A stretch of DNA of 64,000 nucleotides, from the NCBI GenBank assembly GCA_964632315.1, contig CAZWEM010000008.1:32001-96000 (forward strand), given 5' to 3'. Position 1 is the first letter of the stretch, and each line of letters starts with the position of its first letter. Made by a program: the position numbers and the translations under genes. Positions 576-47,808 of this stretch are shown here, piece by piece. The notes under the pieces are model-generated. The model did no database searches. It had not been told where the DNA came from and saw only the letters and a program-made list of their open reading frames with translations. The stretch comes from an uncultured archaeon (lineage in GTDB: Archaea > Asgardarchaeota > Lokiarchaeia > Sigyniarchaeales > SOKP01).

Positions 576-773
576 ATGACGATTGAGAATCCCGATCTCC
601 TCAGTAGGATCAGATCCATTGAAAAACGATTAGATAAGATTGAATCACGATTGTCCACGATTGAAAATAGATTAAGTCGATCTCCCCTCCATCCACAACC
701 ATCACCCGAACCATCACGTCCTGATAGGCCACCTGGTCCCCCTGGACGACCACCAGAACCTTTGCGATTTTAA
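576..773 (+). CDS. Small coiled-coil + proline-rich protein
   Basis: 65 aa; heptads IRSIEKRLDKIESRLSTIENRL followed by PLHPQPSPEPSRPDRPPGPPGRPPEP. Confidence 0.75.
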   Translation: MTIENPDLLSRIRSIEKRLDKIESRLSTIENRLSRSPLHPQPSPEPSRPDRPPGPPGRPPEPLRF

Positions 774-904
774 ACTGAAGACTTTTTGAGTGAAAGTGTT
801 GGAACGACTGCAGTTGTTTATTTCAAACCATAGACCTTAAAATAAAAAAATCCATTATATTGATAATAAAATTTCAAATATTACAAGTAGATAGTGAAAT
901 AATC

Positions 905-1159
905 ATGGCACAATATCGTTTTCGGTTGACCGGAGTTCCTCCTGATCAAGCAATTAAACTCATTGAAGTTGATCCAAACCAAAGCATAGCAGAAATTAAG
1001 AAAACCGTTCAAAGAGAATACAAATTAAACCCGATTTTGGCGATTCAATTCATTTTTAAAGGTAAAGTTTTACCAGACCAGCTAAAATTTGCTAAAGTAG
1101 GTATCCATCCGAAGAAAGATGTAATAACCGTTATGGCTACTCAAGCGGGCGGTTGTTAA
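905..1159 (+). CDS. Ubiquitin-like (beta-grasp) protein ending GG-C
   Basis: ATG at 905 preferred over TTG at 860; 84 aa; SIAEIK..VQ and QFIFKGKVL match the ubiquitin pattern (TIENVK..IQ / RLIFAGKQL); C-terminus AGGC. Confidence 0.85.
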   Translation: MAQYRFRLTGVPPDQAIKLIEVDPNQSIAEIKKTVQREYKLNPILAIQFIFKGKVLPDQLKFAKVGIHPKKDVITVMATQAGGC

Positions 1160-1278
1160 TTTCGAGTTAGCTTCATATAATTTTATTTTCTATTTCTTTT
1201 TATACAGATAATTTAGACTCGAAATTCTGAGACATATATTTATATTTATACTCAGCAAATTACTTATTACCCAAAAGT

Positions 1279-2973
1279 TTGAAGTCAAGATATTCGAAAA
1301 TGAATAAGAAATACCTCGCTATATGGATTCTTTCAATTATTTTAATTATATCCAGTATCACTAACGTGGTAATCATTTTAAATTACCCTAAGGTTACTCC
1401 TGAGGATATATCAACGTTAGTGATAGGTACCTCAGCGGGACCACATACTTTAGAGATTGTCGATTCCTGGGATAGCGCTTCCAATGATGTACTTGAACAA
1501 GTGGTGGAAACATTGTTTTCTCATGATCTTCGAGATCCTACTTTACCTCGAATAAACTTACTTGCGGAATCCTATTATTGGCAAAACAAAACATCACTTC
1601 AGATCAAATTACGCGAAGATATTTCATTCCACGATGGTACCCCGTTTAATTCTATCGCAGCGAAATGGAACTTGGATCGATTACTATACCTTACGAATTG
1701 TACGGGAAAAAATAATAGGACTGTTGCACAAACCCGAACTTTATGGCTGCGTCCAGATGGGAAGACGCCCATTATCAACAATGTGGATGCAGTTGGGGAA
1801 TATAACATTACAATTACCTTAAACGATCCCTATGGGCCTTTTTTAAATCTTTTAACGTATATAAACGCAGGCATGATATCTCCAACTGTACACAATGCTA
1901 GTGTTCATAATTTTATTCCTCTCGATAGTAAAATAGTGGGTACTGGTCCTTTCGTGTATGACCATTACACTCCAAAAGAAGAGGTTGTTCTAACTAGATG
2001 GAAATCATATCGAGAACACATTGCCTATTTTAATGTGCTCAAATTTAAAATATATGCTGACTCTGATAAAGCCCATGAAGCGATGCTAGATGGTAAGATA
2101 GATTTTAACTACTTTGCTAGTCATGAAGATATTCTTGCTTATGAAACTCGTGAAGACATCACGGTAAAGCATTATACGGATGATACTGGTATACCAAGTT
2201 TGTTATATCAATATATTACCTTTAATAATGAGAAATTCAATCAAACTTGGAGAAAAGCAATGAGTTATGCTATAAATTATACCTATATTTTGGAGGTATT
2301 ATTACAGGGAAGGGGAAAGAGAGCGAGTTCTCCAATTTCTCCCGGTTTTGGTGCCTCTTATAATGAGTCTGCAAAAGCACCGAATTTTAACATCACGAAG
2401 GCGCGTGAAATCATGGTTTCAATGGGATTTGGAGATATGGGATGGAGTGATCAACAATGGAGTGATCATAATTTTAAATCAGTTCGATATACCTACAACC
2501 TTGGAAATACTTTTCGTGAGGATTTAGGTGTTTCATTAATTGGTAGTTTTAAGTTAATAGGTATTGATCTTTGGCTCGATGATTGGACACCTTGGGATCC
2601 TTGGTATCCTTTACTTCCCTATGATCACTTTACGACAAATTATGAACTTCTTGGACTATTTGCTAGAGGATGGGCTCCCGATTACCTTGAACCTTATAAC
2701 ATGCTTGATCCATTTTTCAATCCGATTTCTCTTTCAAATATAGCTTTAGTAAATGATACAAAATTGAACACAATGATGAATCTTGCATTAGAAACGACTA
2801 ATGATACTGCTCGGAATATCATTTATAAGGACATTCAAGGCTACCTAACTGAAGCTTGTTTCCATGCTCCTTTATACCATTCCAAAATCATCTCGGTGCA
2901 TTCTTCAAATTTACGGAATGTTCCATATAATTCAATGAGAAAGTTTCAAGCATATGGGATGTGGCGAGTATAA
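1279..2973 (+). CDS. ABC transporter substrate-binding protein, family 5 (peptide/nickel)
   Basis: N-terminal TM anchor (likely start ATG 1300); LREDISFHDGTPFNS, GTGPF, WRKAMSYAIN, GWAPDY motifs. Confidence 0.9.
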   Translation: MKSRYSKMNKKYLAIWILSIILIISSITNVVIILNYPKVTPEDISTLVIGTSAGPHTLEIVDSWDSASNDVLEQVVETLFSHDLRDPTLPRINLLAESYYWQNKTSLQIKLREDISFHDGTPFNSIAAKWNLDRLLYLTNCTGKNNRTVAQTRTLWLRPDGKTPIINNVDAVGEYNITITLNDPYGPFLNLLTYINAGMISPTVHNASVHNFIPLDSKIVGTGPFVYDHYTPKEEVVLTRWKSYREHIAYFNVLKFKIYADSDKAHEAMLDGKIDFNYFASHEDILAYETREDITVKHYTDDTGIPSLLYQYITFNNEKFNQTWRKAMSYAINYTYILEVLLQGRGKRASSPISPGFGASYNESAKAPNFNITKAREIMVSMGFGDMGWSDQQWSDHNFKSVRYTYNLGNTFREDLGVSLIGSFKLIGIDLWLDDWTPWDPWYPLLPYDHFTTNYELLGLFARGWAPDYLEPYNMLDPFFNPISLSNIALVNDTKLNTMMNLALETTNDTARNIIYKDIQGYLTEACFHAPLYHSKIISVHSSNLRNVPYNSMRKFQAYGMWRV

Positions 2974-42961: not shown

Positions 42962-44074
42962 TTAAACCCTTCGTCTTCGCCAAATGATATACGCAACTAT
43001 AATGAGTATGCCAATAACAACTAACACAATCGTTAAGATAAGATAGTTAAATTCTACCATAAAAACATCTTTATCTAGTGAAGATAGGGAATTAAAAAGC
43101 ATTAAACTGTTAAAAGCATAGAAAGTTGTCGTGATTGATGATAATTCTTGATTATTTTCGGAGTATTTATCACTAAATCCTCCATCTTGGAAATTTTGGC
43201 GATCCAAAACCCAAGAAACTGTTGCATCCACATGTAAATTGGAAGATTGAATACAATCGATTGCTGTCGCAGCAAAATACGTACTGCTTAAAAGAGGAAA
43301 AACTGCGATATCCATTGGAAGATAACCTCCATATCTGATTAAATCATACGTATCATTGATGAAAAATGAGTTTAGATACTCCAAGGTTTTTGATTTACTT
43401 ACTAAAGCATCAACACTATCTAGTTCATTGATTAAAACTACCGCATAATATGTGGTTAACAATGTAGAGGTCAATGTCGAATTTCCAGCATACCCTCCAT
43501 CAATTTTAAAACAGCTTAATATCCAATTCTCGTGAATAGCTTTATTAGGAAATTCAATCCCTAGAAGATCATAAATTTGATACGCATAAAAGGTGGATGT
43601 GAGATCTCTTGAATTGCTTGAATTAATGGGTGAGAACCCTCCATCAACATGGGAACTTGAATTAAGATATTTTTGAATCGTAACATTTAAAGCAGAATCA
43701 ATAGAATAGCCAATCAGGTCGAAAGCTTGTAATATATAATAGAGATCATATAAAAGCAATGTATTTGAGTCAAGCATATCATTTAAATTATCTTCCAAAT
43801 AATTACTTAACTCTACTTTATCAACTTGGTTTTCAACACCCAAAACACCCTCAATTTTAAGAGCATCGTAATGGTTGAGTATTTGTAAAGCTTGGGCATT
43901 TTCTTGATAGGTTTCTCCAAGAAAATCTTCACTATCTTCTATTACTCCTTGATTGGCATAAATGAAATCAATCATGTACGAATTTCTCGTCTTAGCAGCT
44001 ACTAAGGGAGTGATAATAATTAAAGATGTAAATGTTAGAAGGATTATCGTGAAGAGTCTAAGTTTTATTTTCAA
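42962..44074 (-). CDS. Secreted prenyltransferase/squalene-oxidase-repeat protein with C-terminal TM anchor
   Basis: Signal peptide; four DGGF/GGY...T(F/Y)(Y/F)A repeats; TM followed by WRRRRV. Confidence 0.82.
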   Translation of the reverse strand: MKIKLRLFTIILLTFTSLIIITPLVAAKTRNSYMIDFIYANQGVIEDSEDFLGETYQENAQALQILNHYDALKIEGVLGVENQVDKVELSNYLEDNLNDMLDSNTLLLYDLYYILQAFDLIGYSIDSALNVTIQKYLNSSSHVDGGFSPINSSNSRDLTSTFYAYQIYDLLGIEFPNKAIHENWILSCFKIDGGYAGNSTLTSTLLTTYYAVVLINELDSVDALVSKSKTLEYLNSFFINDTYDLIRYGGYLPMDIAVFPLLSSTYFAATAIDCIQSSNLHVDATVSWVLDRQNFQDGGFSDKYSENNQELSSITTTFYAFNSLMLFNSLSSLDKDVFMVEFNYLILTIVLVVIGILIIVAYIIWRRRRV

Positions 44075-44206: not shown

Positions 44207-45733
44207 TTAGAAAATTTCGCTAATATCTTTATAGAGATGGTCACTATTTGACAAAAACTCTTCATGGGTTACAAACAGTCTTAAGAATGATGGGAGGCTG
44301 CCAAGTATTGCTGCTCCACTAAAAATTGCAAATTGAAGATTATCTGGGATATAATACTTGATTAATCCTTCTGTAGATTTATAATAACCCGAAAATTCCT
44401 TAGCTGGAGCTATTTTTTTGATTTCTTGTTTTTGAACTTCCGGTGCTTCAAATGATTCTAAGCTTGAACCACAATATGGACAGAAAATTGACGATGTATC
44501 TGTTACCTCTTTCTTACAAGAAGGACAAATTAATTTCCCATCTACCATTATAGATTCAGCAGGATTTTCTCCAAATTCTATGGAAAGCTCTGGTAAGGAT
44601 AGTCTTCCTCCACATGAAGGACAAAATTCCTTACCATCTGATAAATCAACCATTTCACCACATTGGGGGCAAGTATCTCTTGTTTTTTTGCTTCCTTTTA
44701 CTGGTTTCATCTTTGAGGAAATAGATTCTTCATTATTTGTGACTTTTGGTTTTGGGATTTTACCTAATTCTGGAAGGAGTTTATTCAATTCTAAGGTTAA
44801 TCGTTCATCAAAACCAGAATAAGAGAGATTACCACCTGATATAATAACATGTGTTAATAAATCTGACCAATAATGGTTATCAATTCCTTGTAAGCTTGCA
44901 ATTATTGCTTGAGGAACGCTATTTATAGGGTACCCTAATAATTGTGGCTGAAACATAACTTCTGGGGCTTCAGAGAAAATATAGTGAGGAATTTGTATCG
45001 TAGATCCATCTGGCATTGAAAGTTTAAAACTATCGCTCATATCATGATCTTTTGAGGGATCAAGAACAAAATAACAGTTCTTTTCCTTGATATCTCTAAT
45101 TATTTCATCTACAGCAGAAGACTCAATTGATATCCCTTCTCGCATGAGTAAATTTTTTAGATACTGGTTAACATCTGTGCCGGCTAACGTTAACTTCTGG
45201 ACTGCTTGGTCAATTATTTGACCGTTTACAATTGGACAAATCCATGTCATCCCGTCACCACTTTCAATAACTAAACCAGTAGTCAATCCCACACTAAACA
45301 TAGAAAGTATTGGAGTAGGAACCATAATTAAACTTTTTACTCTATGAGTTTCATAAAGAACACGTGCAATATACTCTTTTGTCTCTCTGGGAACGAAAGG
45401 ATACTCAGTATAAAATACGGGATAATCAGAAAGATTTTCTACCCTTAATAACGAGTAAAAAATATAGTTTAGTATTTCATAAAAGTCATTCCAATCTAAA
45501 ATCGCTCCTCTTTCAATGGGATGTTTTACTTTTAAAACTCCACGCATTTTCATTGCATCGTTGCCCACATATATGTTTCTTGCACCCACATCAACCATAA
45601 CGGCCTTGTATTTTTCAGTACCCGTGATAGTGGGAAATACAAATCTTGGGGTGGGCTCTCCAGCGAATCCAACCTTGCAATAAGCCGATCCTATGTCAAT
45701 AATAATGGGGGTTCCTGGTAACGGGATAACCAT
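44207..45733 (-). CDS. Actin-family (Arp-like) protein with double zinc-ribbon insertion
   Basis: IIDIGSAYCKVGFAGE..PRFVFP, HPIERG..DW, TTGLVIESGDG, AGTDV, IKEKNCY, PDG, SGGN, GAAILGSL. Confidence 0.95.
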   Translation of the reverse strand: MVIPLPGTPIIIDIGSAYCKVGFAGEPTPRFVFPTITGTEKYKAVMVDVGARNIYVGNDAMKMRGVLKVKHPIERGAILDWNDFYEILNYIFYSLLRVENLSDYPVFYTEYPFVPRETKEYIARVLYETHRVKSLIMVPTPILSMFSVGLTTGLVIESGDGMTWICPIVNGQIIDQAVQKLTLAGTDVNQYLKNLLMREGISIESSAVDEIIRDIKEKNCYFVLDPSKDHDMSDSFKLSMPDGSTIQIPHYIFSEAPEVMFQPQLLGYPINSVPQAIIASLQGIDNHYWSDLLTHVIISGGNLSYSGFDERLTLELNKLLPELGKIPKPKVTNNEESISSKMKPVKGSKKTRDTCPQCGEMVDLSDGKEFCPSCGGRLSLPELSIEFGENPAESIMVDGKLICPSCKKEVTDTSSIFCPYCGSSLESFEAPEVQKQEIKKIAPAKEFSGYYKSTEGLIKYYIPDNLQFAIFSGAAILGSLPSFLRLFVTHEEFLSNSDHLYKDISEIF

Positions 45734-45860
45734 AGCAATTCAATTTGTTGTATGTTTTTTTAAAAAACCTTAATCTCTAGAAAAGGAATTTTACTATAAA
45801 AATTAAGTGAAGTTTGAAAGTTAAAAATTTTTACTTTAACTCTTCTCATTAAGCTTTGAT

Positions 45861-46528
45861 CTAATTTCCAGACGTAGGATAATTCTTGACAATTTCTCTA
45901 AAAGCTAAAATTTTCTTTTTGCGTTGTTCTATTGCGAGACGATCGGTCTCGTCAAATTCTTCTTCCATCCATTCTTTCTGCTTTCGTTCCTCTGCTAAAG
46001 CTTCGCGTTTATAGTTTTTTAAAGAAATTAGAGAGAATGTTGCTTTATACTGAAATAAGATCCTTCTAAAGAGATAACTCCTTCTGAGAGACTTGTTTTT
46101 TCTTGAATTTTGCCGAAAACTTCCATTATCGGGTAATCTATTATCCCTACGTAGATGTAATGAAAGAGGTTATTGATGTTTTCCATCGCACTAAACTTTC
46201 TCATTGCAAGAGGCTTATTTTGAATTCGGGCAGTATATAATGCTAATAACCCTAGAGCGCAATAAAATCGCATTACAATCTCTTCTTGTTTGTACCTTGC
46301 TATAATAAAATTGGATATATTCTCTTGAATTTCGTTGATCACAGTGGGAGCGAAGTTCTGTTGCCAGATCGAAAGATATTTGATCAGCATTTCATACCAT
46401 GTATCGCAAAATCACTTGGATTGGGTAAAGAATACAACCCCAAAAGTGTCATAGTTGAATTTCAGCTCATAAGCGTTGAATTCTGGTGGTTCAATTACGG
46501 ATATATAACTCGTTCCTATTTTTTCCAT
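45861..46528 (-). pseudogene. Disrupted hypothetical gene (in-frame TGA plus frameshift)
   Basis: ATG 46528 MEKIGTSY...VVFFTQSK*FCDTWYEMLIKY... (TGA at 46414-46412) in frame with ORF 46390-46028; protein-like tail ...KNYKREALAEERKQKEWMEEEFDETDRLAIEQRKKKILAFREIVKNYPTSGN* in another frame ending 45861. Confidence 0.65.
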
Positions 46529-46701
46529 TCACTTTCGCCTTCATTTAATTGTGTTTATAATAAATTACAATGAGAGTATTTAAACAAAAATTGTAAATTT
46601 TTGATTAGTTTCATATCACGGTTTTCTCGATAGAACTTTGTATAACAATTAGAAAAATTAATCATAATCCTCATGGTCATTATAAAAGTTTTGATTTTCA
46701 T

Positions 46702-46856
46702 TTAGCAAATTTCCTTTTTCAAGAATTCAATGATTGCTTTCCTGATTGAGATTCTTTCTTCTTCGTCTTAATCATTCAGTAGTCGTTTAATGAGAATATC
46801 AATTTCGTTCAGGAATCCATTAATTGTTTTAAAAATTGGTTAAAATCATTTTCCAT
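46702..46856 (-). pseudogene. Decayed small helical ORF
   Basis: MENDFNQFLK, frameshift, then INGFLNEIDILIKRLLND*DEEERISIRKAIIEFLKKEIC*. Confidence 0.45.
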
Positions 46857-46878
46857 AAAATTTCAAATTAGTCGGGGA

Positions 46879-47304
46879 TTAATCTTTCAATATTGAATAA
46901 ATTGTAGTTAAGATATCGTATTGAATTACTAACCCAATCAATTCAGATCTCTCATTAACTACAGGTAATCGTTCAATTTTATTTTCATGCATTAATTGAA
47001 GTACTTTAACGAGTGAATCTTCTTTTCTGATTACAATTGGATCTGAAGTCATTAAATCGCTAACACGTGTATTAGGAGTATCTAAATTCATGGCAAATCT
47101 GGCTAATCTAATATCCCGTTGAGTGATTATCCCTATTACCTCCTTTTTAGTGGCTTCTCTAACCACGGGCAAACCTCCTATTTTTTTCCTTAACATTAAT
47201 AATTCTGTTTGACTAATTTTGGCTTCAGGAGTAGTGTAGATAGGATTCAATATCATAAAATCCAAAACTTTTAGTTGCGGAATTTTTAAAGCCTTTTCTG
47301 CCAT
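46879..47304 (-). CDS. CBS domain pair protein
   Basis: KIGGLPVV...GIITQRDI; VSDLMTSDP...IERLPVV...LIGLV..DI. Confidence 0.92.
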   Translation of the reverse strand: MAEKALKIPQLKVLDFMILNPIYTTPEAKISQTELLMLRKKIGGLPVVREATKKEVIGIITQRDIRLARFAMNLDTPNTRVSDLMTSDPIVIRKEDSLVKVLQLMHENKIERLPVVNERSELIGLVIQYDILTTIYSILKD

Positions 47305-47394: not shown

Positions 47395-47808
47395 TTAGTC
47401 TAACCTAAGAGTGCTTTCAAGCTTCTTTTCAAGCTTTTTTATCTCAGAAAATAATGTATTATATGTCTCAAGTAAAAATTGACCCCATTCGTTTAATTCA
47501 ATCCATCCTCCTCCTCCAGGTCCTCCTTTTCCAGTATTGACTGGAGTTTGTCCTGTTCGTTTTTCTATTCTTTTTAAAATATTCCACGCATACTTATAGG
47601 AATAACCACAGTCTTGGGCAGCTTTCGTTAATGAATTATCCTTCATTTGGCTTAATTCATGAATGCGGTTTAAAAGTTTTGCCCATCCAGAACCTAAGAT
47701 GTTTTTTCTTTCTCCATTTTCGAATTCTAACCAAATTTTCAAGCCAAAACTTACTTTTTTTTTGAGGCTTTCAATATTAGAAGGTTGGATTGGGGGTTTA
47801 TTCTTCAT
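47395..47808 (-). CDS. ModE-like winged-helix transcriptional regulator (N-terminal domain only)
   Basis: KIWLE...ILGSG..LL..I...SLTKAA..GYSYKYAWNIL...GKGGPGGGG..L..G. Confidence 0.88.
   Translation of the reverse strand: MKNKPPIQPSNIESLKKKVSFGLKIWLEFENGERKNILGSGWAKLLNRIHELSQMKDNSLTKAAQDCGYSYKYAWNILKRIEKRTGQTPVNTGKGGPGGGGWIELNEWGQFLLETYNTLFSEIKKLEKKLESTLRLD

What the first reader, a model, noticed from the sequence alone, without database searches (positions are those of the whole stretch)
44207..45733. Actin-related protein with a ~135-aa double zinc-ribbon insert and altered ATPase residues
Seen: a full actin fold interrupted at about residues 322-456 (nt ~44366-44770) by a Lys/Pro linker and four CxxC motifs (CPQC, CPSC, CPSC, CPYC), between LNKLLP and IKYYIP. 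This corresponds to actin's ALAPSTMKIKII loop, where Arp2 and Arp3 also carry insertions. Equivalents of actin Q137 and H161 read T (MVPTPILS) and W (GMTWICP), and H73 reads R. Inference: a non-canonical, possibly hydrolysis-poor Arp-like scaffold, nucleator or capper with its own interaction module, i.e. specialised actin paralogs in an archaeon.
Basis: partly seen in the sequence, partly recalled or inferred. Interest (0 to 1): 0.8.

Follow-up and report, generated by a model that had tools for sequence, protein, structure and literature searches.

The report
Asgard actin relative with zinc-ribbon insert
This is a real gene for an actin-like protein of Loki-type Asgard archaea that has two small zinc-binding modules spliced into a loop which normally glues actin subunits together. 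It has also lost actin's ATP-splitting residues, is kept across a whole archaeal order including the cultured strains, and its function is untested.

Summary
Window 44207-45733 (minus strand) is an intact 508-aa ORF with an actin fold. It is interrupted at residues 324-457 by a basic linker, two C4 zinc ribbons and a second linker. The break falls at actin's 322-326 loop, an F-actin longitudinal contact.

- **Conservation:** All eight Cys, R75 (actin H73) and W164 (H161) are invariant in 118 relatives. Q137 is always T or S.
- **Not a chimera:** The protein is in 127 of 134 genomes of the window's GTDB family. Orthologs of 40-47% identity occur across the order, including Ca. Lokiarchaeum ossiferum (UYP44711.1), Promethearchaeum syntrophicum (QEE17409.1) and Ca. 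Harpocratesius. It was not found at E<=1e-100 in 248 other Asgard genomes.
- **Phylogeny:** With insert columns removed, the clade is monophyletic (SH-aLRT 100) and separate from Lokiactin and from eukaryotic actin plus centractin.
- **Gene context:** A gene for a membrane-anchored alpha/alpha-toroid surface protein almost always lies directly downstream.
- **Interface pattern:** Pointed-face contact residues stay Lokiactin-like; barbed-face ones have diverged.
- **Best reading (inferred):** a hydrolysis-poor Arp that docks on Lokiactin by its pointed face and uses the tethered ribbons to bind a partner, possibly at the envelope.

I found no paper describing the insert. This scan has already reported the same family from at least 35 other genomes.

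The parts
44207..45733 (-). Whole gene: 508-aa zinc-ribbon actin-related protein (ZnR-Arp), P0001
   Evidence: ORF and translation. Actin + DZR Pfam hits. AF2 model pLDDT 84.9.
44765..45733 (-). N-terminal actin core, residues 1-323 (subdomains 1, 2, 4 and most of 3). Includes P1 loop DIGSA (13-17), R75 (nt 45509-45511), T140 (45314-45316), E157-S-G-D-G-M-T-W164 (W164 at 45242-45244) and PDG 241-243.
   Evidence: Alignments to actin. Within-family identity 0.82.
44678..44764 (-). Linker 1, residues 324-352. Lys/Pro-rich, mean net charge +5.5 in the family, predicted disordered.
44591..44677 (-). Zinc ribbon 1, residues 353-381 (D353, C355, C358, G359, C371, C374, G375). Present in every clade member.
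   Evidence: Invariant columns in the clade-wide alignment A2. pLDDT ~83.
44534..44590 (-). Inter-ribbon linker, residues 382-400. Poorly conserved (0.40).
44456..44533 (-). Zinc ribbon 2, residues 401-426 (C403, C406, C418, C421). Always 26 aa in family f1. Absent in the f4-type members and in L. ossiferum.
44363..44455 (-). Linker 2, residues 427-457. Mildly acidic, with a conserved A-x-E-F motif (444-447) just before re-entry into the actin fold.
44207..44362 (-). C-terminal actin core, residues 458-508 (last strand of subdomain 3 and C-terminal helices of subdomain 1). Ends in Phe, followed by the stop codon.
   Evidence: Aligns to actin 327-364. Within-family identity 0.80.
42962..44074 (-). 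Conserved downstream neighbour: 370-aa protein with an N-terminal signal/anchor, a prenyltransferase-type alpha/alpha-toroid domain, a C-terminal TM helix and a W-R-R-R-R-V tail (P0122). The 132-nt gap holds a TATA-like box, so it may have its own promoter.
   Evidence: Pfam PF00432 at 5.4e-15. Adjacency in nearly all loci. Topology and tail. Intergenic sequence.
47395..47808 (-). Conserved upstream small ModE-like HTH protein (137 aa)
   Evidence: TIGR00637 at 1.5e-13, below cut-off. Homolog upstream in 82 loci, including L. ossiferum, Harpocratesius and P. syntrophicum.
46879..47304 (-). Upstream CBS-pair protein (141 aa), syntenic in most of family f1

Best explanation
The gene encodes a lineage-specific actin-related protein of Lokiarchaeia/Promethearchaeia, from the order that also holds Lokiarchaeum, Promethearchaeum and Harpocratesius.

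**Shown**
- It has a complete actin fold with the nucleotide-binding scaffold kept (D13, G15, K20, G159, G161, RDIKEK, GG300-301).
- The water-activating pair Q137/H161 is replaced by T/S and W (other non-His residues in distant members), and H73 is replaced by Arg.
- One or two C4 zinc ribbons on ~30-residue disordered tethers emerge from the subdomain-3 loop, which in F-actin (residues 322-325) touches subdomain 4 of the next subunit.
- The protein is vertically inherited and under purifying selection.
- It is almost always followed by a gene for a membrane-anchored, outward-facing alpha/alpha-toroid protein.

**Inferred**
- It binds ATP but hydrolyses it slowly or not at all. It is not a canonical filament former.
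- Its pointed-end face (D-loop, 61-65, 200-208, PDG 243-245) has stayed Lokiactin-like, while its barbed-end face has diverged and carries the insert.
- It therefore most likely docks with its pointed face onto the barbed end (or a barbed-face site) of Lokiactin.
- In that position it would hinder further subunit addition and present the tethered zinc ribbons as a binding module for a partner, possibly at the cell membrane or envelope.
- In short, it would be a filament-end adapter or capper rather than a nucleator.
For: **Fold and insert position:**

**Family-wide residue pattern:** 118 sequences have 8 of 8 Cys, R75 and W164 invariant and T/S at 140. The wider clade never has Q at 137 or H at 161, always has R at 73, and ZnR1 is invariant.

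**Selection pattern:** identity is 0.82 and 0.80 in the two core parts, 0.78 and 0.68 in the ribbons, and 0.40-0.59 in the linkers. Linker lengths are tightly kept; the insert is 125-135 aa in 118 sequences.

**Distribution:** f1 127/134; present in f2, f3 and f4; 0 in 248 other Asgard genomes at E<=1e-100. Orthologs occur in three closed genomes, named by exact look-up as L. ossiferum UYP44711.1, P. syntrophicum QEE17409.1 and H. repetitus MCF2140085.1.

**Tree:** the clade has SH-aLRT 100 and a stem of 0.51. It is apart from Lokiactin (L001/L002) and from actin plus centractin (P0236).

**Contact role of actin 322-325 with 243-245:** PMC7247010.

**Interface asymmetry against the genome's own Lokiactin:** the pointed set is 0.41-0.56 identical and the barbed set 0.19-0.31 in all seven clade members tested. 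There is no such asymmetry in paralogues L003 and L005, in centractin or in eukaryotic actin.

**Gene pair:** the toroid gene lies directly downstream in almost all ~100 loci. This includes the 39-47%-identical members, whose other neighbours differ. The toroid gene tracks the same taxa.

**Transcription:** the L. ossiferum ortholog's transcript was assayed by RT-qPCR alongside the other actin homologues, and Lokiactin transcripts were severalfold higher (PMC9834061).
Against: - There is no biochemical or localisation data for any member.
- For the window protein alone the interface asymmetry is not significant (16/32 vs 15/48, Fisher p = 0.11). The clade members are not independent, and I chose the residue sets from memory of F-actin contacts.
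- Long flexible tethers could let the ribbons swing away, so polymerisation is not excluded. The D-loop, the plug length and the C-terminal Phe are actin-like.
- The toroid domain is predicted to lie outside the cell with only a 5-6-residue cytoplasmic tail, so direct binding to the Arp is hard to picture.
- The tail resembles a sortase-type sorting signal and might be cleaved off.
- Three g13 genomes (G274, G276, G278) keep the Arp without a toroid match at E<=1e-25. G279 and G276 lack the toroid gene beside the Arp.
- TATA-like boxes before each gene suggest separate transcripts.
- Zinc ribbons are generic. Nothing identifies their ligand.
Confidence: 0.4

Rival explanations
1. It is a polymerising actin paralogue. 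It builds its own filaments or co-polymerises with Lokiactin, and the tethered zinc ribbons simply decorate the filament surface as a built-in binding site.
For: The D-loop has full length and is conserved. PDG 241-243 is invariant. The plug region has actin-like length and the C-terminus ends in Phe. Two ~30-residue disordered tethers could let the module loop out of the 322-325 contact. Many prokaryotic actins polymerise without Q137/H161 equivalents (general knowledge).
Against: The insertion point lies inside a longitudinal contact. Barbed-face residues are only 0.19-0.31 identical to Lokiactin, against 0.36 overall. Catalytic residues coupled to polymerisation are lost in every member. 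Lokiactin transcripts were severalfold higher than those of the other actin homologues in L. ossiferum.
Confidence: 0.2
2. It is a nucleic-acid-linked or chromatin-type Arp. The basic linker plus zinc ribbons would bind DNA or RNA, and the actin fold would act as a non-polymerising scaffold, by analogy with nuclear Arp4/Arp5/Arp8, whose insertions contact DNA or nucleosomes.
For: Linker 1 is basic (mean +5.5). Weak ribbon similarities point to RpoP, TFS, TFIIB and YacG-type ribbons. A small ModE-like HTH gene is conserved upstream. The catalytic residues are lost, as in some nuclear Arps (general knowledge).
Against: All ribbon hits are generic and below family cut-offs. No helicase/HSA-type partner lies nearby. 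The most conserved neighbour is a membrane surface protein. Linker 2 and ZnR1 are acidic.
Confidence: 0.15
3. It is an Arp2/3-like nucleator. The protein would template new filaments from its barbed face, with the insert playing the regulatory role that Arp3's insert in the same loop plays.
For: From memory, Arp2 and Arp3 carry inserts in the same loop. Conserved Arp3 inserts with complex-specific functions are documented (PMC4947185).
Against: The barbed face is the diverged one. No ARPC4 or ARPC2 was found in this 99.5%-complete genome with the Pfam models, although there was no positive control. The protein does not group with eukaryotic Arps in my tree, which however lacked Arp2/3. Its best PDB sequence matches are actins and Arp1.
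Confidence: 0.08
4. It is an assembly chimera or a gene-fusion artefact.
For: None found.
Against: More than 120 protein clusters from independent assemblies share the architecture. So do 131 other genomes and three closed genomes. The Cys residues are invariant.
Confidence: 0.01

Closest known systems
Lokiactin, the conserved Asgard actin (this genome's copies L001 and L002; solved relative PDB 9wc4 'HC1 actin')
   Same: Same fold and the best sequence match (246 bits to 9wc4). The D-loop and subdomain-4 contact residues are similar. Both occur in the same genomes.
   Different: Only ~36% identical and a separate clade. Lokiactin keeps Q137, H161, H73 and DNGTG and has no insert. The barbed face has diverged.
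Eukaryotic Arp3 and Arp2 (Arp2/3 complex)
   Same: Actin-fold proteins with conserved inserts relative to actin. From memory, both have an insert in this same loop before the last subdomain-3 strand. Arp3 inserts have complex-specific roles (PMC4947185).
   Different: Their inserts are short (about 10-20 residues, from memory) and have no zinc ribbons. They keep the hydrolysis residues (from memory). They work within a seven-subunit complex whose ARPC2/ARPC4 subunits were not found here. No phylogenetic link was tested.
Arp1/centractin (a label some JGI annotations give this family)
   Same: Comparable sequence similarity (232 bits to Arp1, against ~235 to actin).
   Different: The centractin representatives (P0236 and its clade) group with eukaryotic actin, far from the ZnR clade. 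Arp1 has no such insert, so the label is not supported.
Nuclear Arps with large functional insertions (Arp5, Arp8, Arp4)
   Same: A non-polymerising actin fold in which large insertions provide the binding function, with altered ATPase sites (general knowledge).
   Different: The insertions are at other positions and of other kinds. There is no HSA-helicase partner nearby. Relatedness was not tested.
UYP44711.1 of Ca. Lokiarchaeum ossiferum, one of the three 'ARPs' in Rodrigues-Oliveira et al. 2022 (PMC9834061)
   Same: Ortholog at 41% identity, with the same insertion site and the same downstream toroid gene UYP44710.1. It is placed among ARPs and was assayed by RT-qPCR in that paper.
   Different: It has a single zinc ribbon (499 aa). 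The paper does not contain the word 'zinc'.

Membership tests
Actin family (Pfam PF00022) | Significant match to the family profile and a four-subdomain actin fold | tested here: met
   E 2.5e-69, 234 bits against a cut-off of 27. Foldseek TM ~0.9 to actin chains.
Actin family (Pfam PF00022) | Nucleotide-binding phosphate loops and adenine-pocket residues | tested here: inconclusive
   D13, G15, K20, G159, G161, RDIKEK and GG are kept. However, N12 is I, G15 is A, D154 is E, T303 is N and K336 is Q. Binding was not assayed.
Lokiactin (conserved Asgard actin) | Groups with Lokiactins in phylogeny and keeps actin's catalytic Q137/H161 and H73 | tested here: not met
   Separate clade with SH-aLRT 100. 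The positions read T/S, W and R instead.
Double zinc ribbon (PF12773 DZR / PF13248 Zn_ribbon_3) | Profile match above cut-off and two sets of four Cys in CxxC pairs | tested here: met
   38.9 and 44.9 bits, above cut-offs of 27.3 and 27. All 8 Cys are invariant in 118 sequences. Zinc binding itself was not assayed.
Arp2/3 complex subunits Arp2 and Arp3 | Co-occurrence with ARPC1-5 subunits | tested here: inconclusive
   PF05856 (ARPC4) and PF04045 (ARPC2) were not found in the own genome (99.5% complete). The control set had no positive either.
Arp2/3 complex subunits Arp2 and Arp3 | Orthology to Arp2 or Arp3 in a phylogeny | not tested
   No labelled Arp2/Arp3 sequences were available to me. 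The top 60 PDB sequence hits are actins and Arp1 only.
Arp1 / centractin | Groups with centractin in phylogeny | tested here: not met
   The clade with centractin P0236 sits inside the eukaryotic actin group, away from the ZnR clade.
Nuclear Arps (Arp4-Arp9) | Binding to an HSA-domain helicase; orthology | not testable with these tools
   No HSA or Snf2 gene lies in the neighbourhood. No labelled sequences were available for a tree.

The most novel reading that the evidence does not exclude
The zinc-ribbon Arp is a dedicated barbed-end terminator and anchor of Lokiactin filaments. It would add once to a growing end through its Lokiactin-like pointed face. It would then block further growth with its remodelled barbed face and tie the filament end, through the tethered zinc ribbons, to a membrane or envelope site marked by the co-inherited toroid surface protein. 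That would be a one-polypeptide archaeal counterpart of eukaryotic capping and membrane-linker systems.
Probability: 0.2. Interest if true: 0.85.

Novelty: new variant of a known kind. Interest (0 to 1): 0.62.

Why it matters
[quoted passage not shown] This family offers a concrete handle on one of them. It has a clear structural signature: zinc ribbons in a filament-contact loop, and the catalytic pair lost. It is conserved across an entire order, has a conserved partner gene, and is present in the cultured strains (L. ossiferum, P. syntrophicum) where it can be localised and purified.

If it caps or anchors filaments, regulation of actin ends by an actin paralogue would predate eukaryotes. 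Zinc-ribbon insertion would be a new way to build an Arp.

Existing annotations ('zinc ribbon domain-containing protein', 'hypothetical protein', 'centractin') hide the protein from cytoskeleton surveys.

Tried and rejected
- **First AlphaFold2 run:** on 25 close relatives it gave a useless model (pLDDT 45.9). It was replaced by a run on a 96-sequence alignment.
- **Complex prediction** (ZnR-Arp with the genome's Lokiactin): not folded, because of a rule of the tool about eukaryote-like chains.
- **The protein-atlas search** on the insert: no usable hit.
- **The look-up of sequencing runs:** no RNA holder listed. The DNA holders are salt-marsh and marsh metagenomes.
- **Literature:** there were no papers combining Asgard, actin-related and zinc ribbon, nor 'Asgard ARPs' phrases. 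The accessions appear only in PMC9834061. Nothing was found in its held supplements. Liu et al. 2013 on Arp3 inserts is not held.
- **ARPC4/ARPC2:** not found with the Pfam models, but there was no positive control.
- **NCBIfam:** no specific family model for the Arp or for the toroid protein, including no C-terminal sorting-domain model.
- **ORF 46028-46390** (120 aa, upstream): considered as a partner gene and rejected. It has a homolog in none of the ~100 related loci.
- **Chimera reading:** rejected.
- **MAG labels:** names such as Hodarchaeota, Hermodarchaeota, Thorarchaeota and Odinarchaeota suggested a pan-Asgard distribution. The GTDB-based search puts these genomes in one family and order, so I rejected that reading.
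Full report
**Observation**

Window 44207-45733 (minus strand) is an uninterrupted ATG-started ORF of 508 aa.
- Pfam finds Actin (PF00022) at E 2.5e-69 over residues 9-332. It also finds double zinc-ribbon families over 355-423, above their curated cut-offs.
- Against PDB sequences the best match is 9wc4 'HC1 actin' (246 bits), then conventional actins (~235) and Arp1 (232).
- Residues 6-326 align to actin 8-327, and residues 458-497 align to actin 327-364.
- So about 134 extra residues (324-457, nt 44363-44764) lie between actin T324 and I327.
- The same alignment gives Q137 = T140, H161 = W164 and H73 = R75. In addition, D154 = E157 and the first phosphate loop DNGSG reads DIGSA.

**Chimera and chance tests**

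- A word-indexed search returned more than 120 protein clusters of 60-89% identity. Nearly all are 501-512 aa (a few partial) and carry Actin plus DZR domains. They come from JGI, ENA, NCBI and Logan assemblies.
- In a 118-sequence alignment all eight Cys, R75 and W164 are invariant. Position 140 is T (99) or S (19), and position 157 is E in 116.
- Mean column identity is 0.82 and 0.80 in the two core parts, 0.78 and 0.68 in the ribbons, and 0.40-0.59 in the three linkers.
- Linker lengths are nevertheless tightly kept. The whole insert is 125-135 aa, and ribbon 2 is always 26 aa.
- Linker 1 is basic (mean +5.5) and linker 2 mildly acidic.
- This is the pattern of a functional module on tethers of constrained length.

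**Distribution**

- Among 400 genomes of the phylum, a match at E<=1e-100 occurs in 127 of 134 genomes of the window's GTDB family.
- It also occurs in single genomes of three sister families of the same order, and in none of 248 other Asgard genomes.
- At a looser threshold, three closed genomes of the sister family f3 each hold an ortholog of 41-42% identity.
- Exact look-up names these as UYP44711.1 of Ca. Lokiarchaeum ossiferum B-35, QEE17409.1 of Promethearchaeum syntrophicum and MCF2140085.1 of Ca. Harpocratesius repetitus.
- An exhaustive profile-free search of 1.8 billion representatives finds only about nine 50%-identity clusters with this architecture. Scores then fall to the generic actin level.
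- Record titles of 80 related loci are almost all 'Promethearchaeota/Promethearchaeia archaeon'. The Hod-, Hermod-, Thor- and Odinarchaeota labels on some MAGs conflict with their placement in one GTDB family.

**Variation within the clade**

- Ribbon 1 (D353, C355, C358, G359, C371, C374, G375) is invariant everywhere.
- Ribbon 2 is missing in the f4-type members and in L. ossiferum.
- R at actin position 73 is universal.
- Position 137 is T, S, A, N or D, never Q.
- Position 161 is W, T, F, Y or N, never H.
- A short A-x-E-F motif precedes re-entry into the fold.

**Phylogeny**

The tree is a quick IQ-TREE run of 81 sequences and 375 columns, with insert columns dropped by the fill filter.
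- The 24 clade members are monophyletic, with SH-aLRT 100 and a stem of 0.51.
- Their branching follows the GTDB families, which indicates vertical descent.
- They are apart from the genome's two Lokiactins (L001, L002) and from the eukaryotic actin group. That group contains centractin, identified by name look-up.
- A 385-aa insert-less paralogue in one genome (L014, G196) nests deep inside family f1 on a long branch, so it is a secondary loss.
- Arp2, Arp3 and the nuclear Arps were not in the tree, so relations to them are open.
- The window's genome holds five actin-fold genes in all. The other divergent paralogues (L003, L005) have also lost Q137/H161, so that loss is not unique to this family.

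**Structure**

- With a 96-sequence alignment, AlphaFold2 gives pLDDT 84.9 and pTM 0.74.
- The model has a confident actin core, two confident ribbons (~83) and three disordered stretches (336-347, 383-391, 427-446).
- The core matches G- and F-actin chains with TM ~0.9.
- Actin residues 322-325 of subdomain 3 contact residues 243-245 of subdomain 4 of the neighbouring subunit in F-actin (PMC7247010). The insert leaves the fold exactly there, on the barbed-end face.

**Interface comparison**

I compared contact residue sets, chosen from my knowledge of F-actin, with the genome's own Lokiactin.
- Pointed-face set: residues 40-50, 61-65, 200-208 and 241-247.
- Barbed-face set: residues 143-148, 165-172, 283-294, 322-325, 345-355 and 367-375.

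| Comparison | Pointed set identity | Barbed set identity | Overall |
|---|---|---|---|
| Seven clade members | 0.41-0.56 | 0.19-0.31 | 0.32-0.40 |
| Window protein alone | 16/32 | 15/48 | 0.36 |

- Paralogues L003 and L005, the insert-less L014, centractin and eukaryotic actin show no such asymmetry.
- For the window protein alone the difference is not significant (p = 0.11), and the clade members are not independent.
- I treat this as a consistent but modest indication. The protein appears to keep the face that docks onto a barbed end and to have remodelled the face that would accept the next subunit.

**Gene context**

- Directly downstream on the same strand (132-nt gap) lies a 370-aa protein. 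It has an N-terminal signal or anchor, a prenyltransferase-type alpha/alpha-toroid domain (PF00432, 5.4e-15), a C-terminal TM helix and a W-R-R-R-R-V end.
- Using phmmer and a family HMM on about 100 loci, this gene is adjacent in nearly all. That includes the f2, f3 and f4 genomes, the three closed genomes, and the metagenomic members P0124, P0125, P0127 and P0129. In these distant loci the other neighbours differ.
- Exceptions are G279 and G276.
- In three f1 loci another segment separates the pair.
- Three g13 genomes keep the Arp without a toroid match at E<=1e-25.
- The toroid gene is single-copy, evolves faster (54% identity where the Arp is 75%) and has the same taxonomic range.
- A small ModE-like HTH gene is conserved upstream in 82 loci, including the cultured strains. 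FolD usually follows the toroid gene.
- TATA-like boxes precede both the Arp and the toroid gene, so co-transcription is not implied.
- The toroid domain should face outward, which leaves only a five- to six-residue basic tail in the cytoplasm. A direct Arp-toroid contact is therefore doubtful, and the link may be regulatory or indirect.

**Mechanism**

- Shown: the fold, the insertion site in a filament contact, the loss of the catalytic pair, the conserved zinc-ligand sets on tethers, order-wide vertical inheritance and the conserved gene pair.
- Inferred: ATP binding without efficient hydrolysis, no canonical polymerisation, docking by the pointed face on Lokiactin barbed ends, and use of the ribbons to bind a partner, perhaps at the envelope.
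- I give this 0.4.
- The rivals are a filament-forming paralogue with a decorating module (0.2), a nucleic-acid-linked Arp (0.15), an Arp2/3-like nucleator (0.08) and an artefact (0.01).

**Comparison with what is known, and novelty**

- The family is in public databases under uninformative names.
- Its L. ossiferum member is one of three 'ARPs' placed in the tree and assayed by RT-qPCR in Rodrigues-Oliveira et al. 2022. There, Lokiactin transcripts were severalfold higher than those of the other homologues. That paper does not contain the word 'zinc'.
- Full-text searches for the combination found nothing. The viractin paper speaks only of five 'asgardactin' clades.
- Arps defined by insertions are a known kind. 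A zinc-ribbon module inside the actin fold, at a longitudinal contact, is a new variant of it.
- This scan has already reported the same family from at least 35 other genomes, with follow-ups that reached the same main conclusions. I consulted those notes after my own analyses, and they agree.

Noticed in passing
window 42962-44074 (-), and toroid genes in L006-L105: The downstream toroid protein ends in a strikingly conserved tripartite C-terminus. It has an E-F-N/D-aromatic motif, then a TM helix, then W-R-[RK]-R-R-[ILV] as the last residues. The last residues read Y-[KR]-Y-K-N-R-I in the Lokiarchaeum, Promethearchaeum and Harpocratesius loci. This resembles archaeosortase/exosortase-type sorting signals, but no NCBIfam sorting-domain model matched.
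   Followed up: partly
window 45734-46878: The spacer between the CBS gene and the Arp gene is 1.1 kb here, against roughly 80-115 nt in relatives read. It holds a 120-aa ORF (46028-46390) with no homolog in ~100 related loci, and a ~50-codon open frame ending near 45862. The stretch is single-copy in the genome. It may be the remnant of an inserted or decayed gene.
   Followed up: partly
L014 (G196:C37) 1812-2969 (-) and 630-1769 (+): One genome has a second, insert-less, fast-evolving copy of this Arp (385 aa). It nests inside family f1 and lies next to a Ras/Roc-type small GTPase gene.
   Followed up: partly
L098 (JGI 3300009503 contig) 1-1181: In the locus of the divergent member P0124, Vps4 and ESCRT-II genes lie about 4-5 kb upstream of the zinc-ribbon Arp.
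   Followed up: no
G195:C12:3330-4412: One family-f1 genome (58% complete) has a copy with five in-frame stops (3 TAG, 2 TAA) covering only residues 80-440. It may be a pseudogene or a poor assembly.
   Followed up: no
L048 (DATKTW010000100.1); L023, L025, L028, L059 and others: Record titles conflict with content. A contig labelled 'Candidatus Nanopelagicaceae bacterium' carries this Asgard gene cluster at 68% identity. Many MAGs labelled Hod-, Hermod-, Thor- or Odinarchaeota fall in the same GTDB family as the window, so they are likely mislabelled or mis-binned.
   Followed up: no
G000 C10:17618-18730 and C12:94585-95694 (L001, L002): The genome has two Lokiactin-type genes about 82% identical to each other, plus two further divergent actin paralogues (L003, L005). 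Those two have also lost Q137/H161.
   Followed up: partly
window 47395-47808 (-): A small ModE-like HTH protein is conserved upstream of the Arp gene across the order (82 loci), directly adjacent in the cultured strains. It is a possible local regulator.
   Followed up: partly
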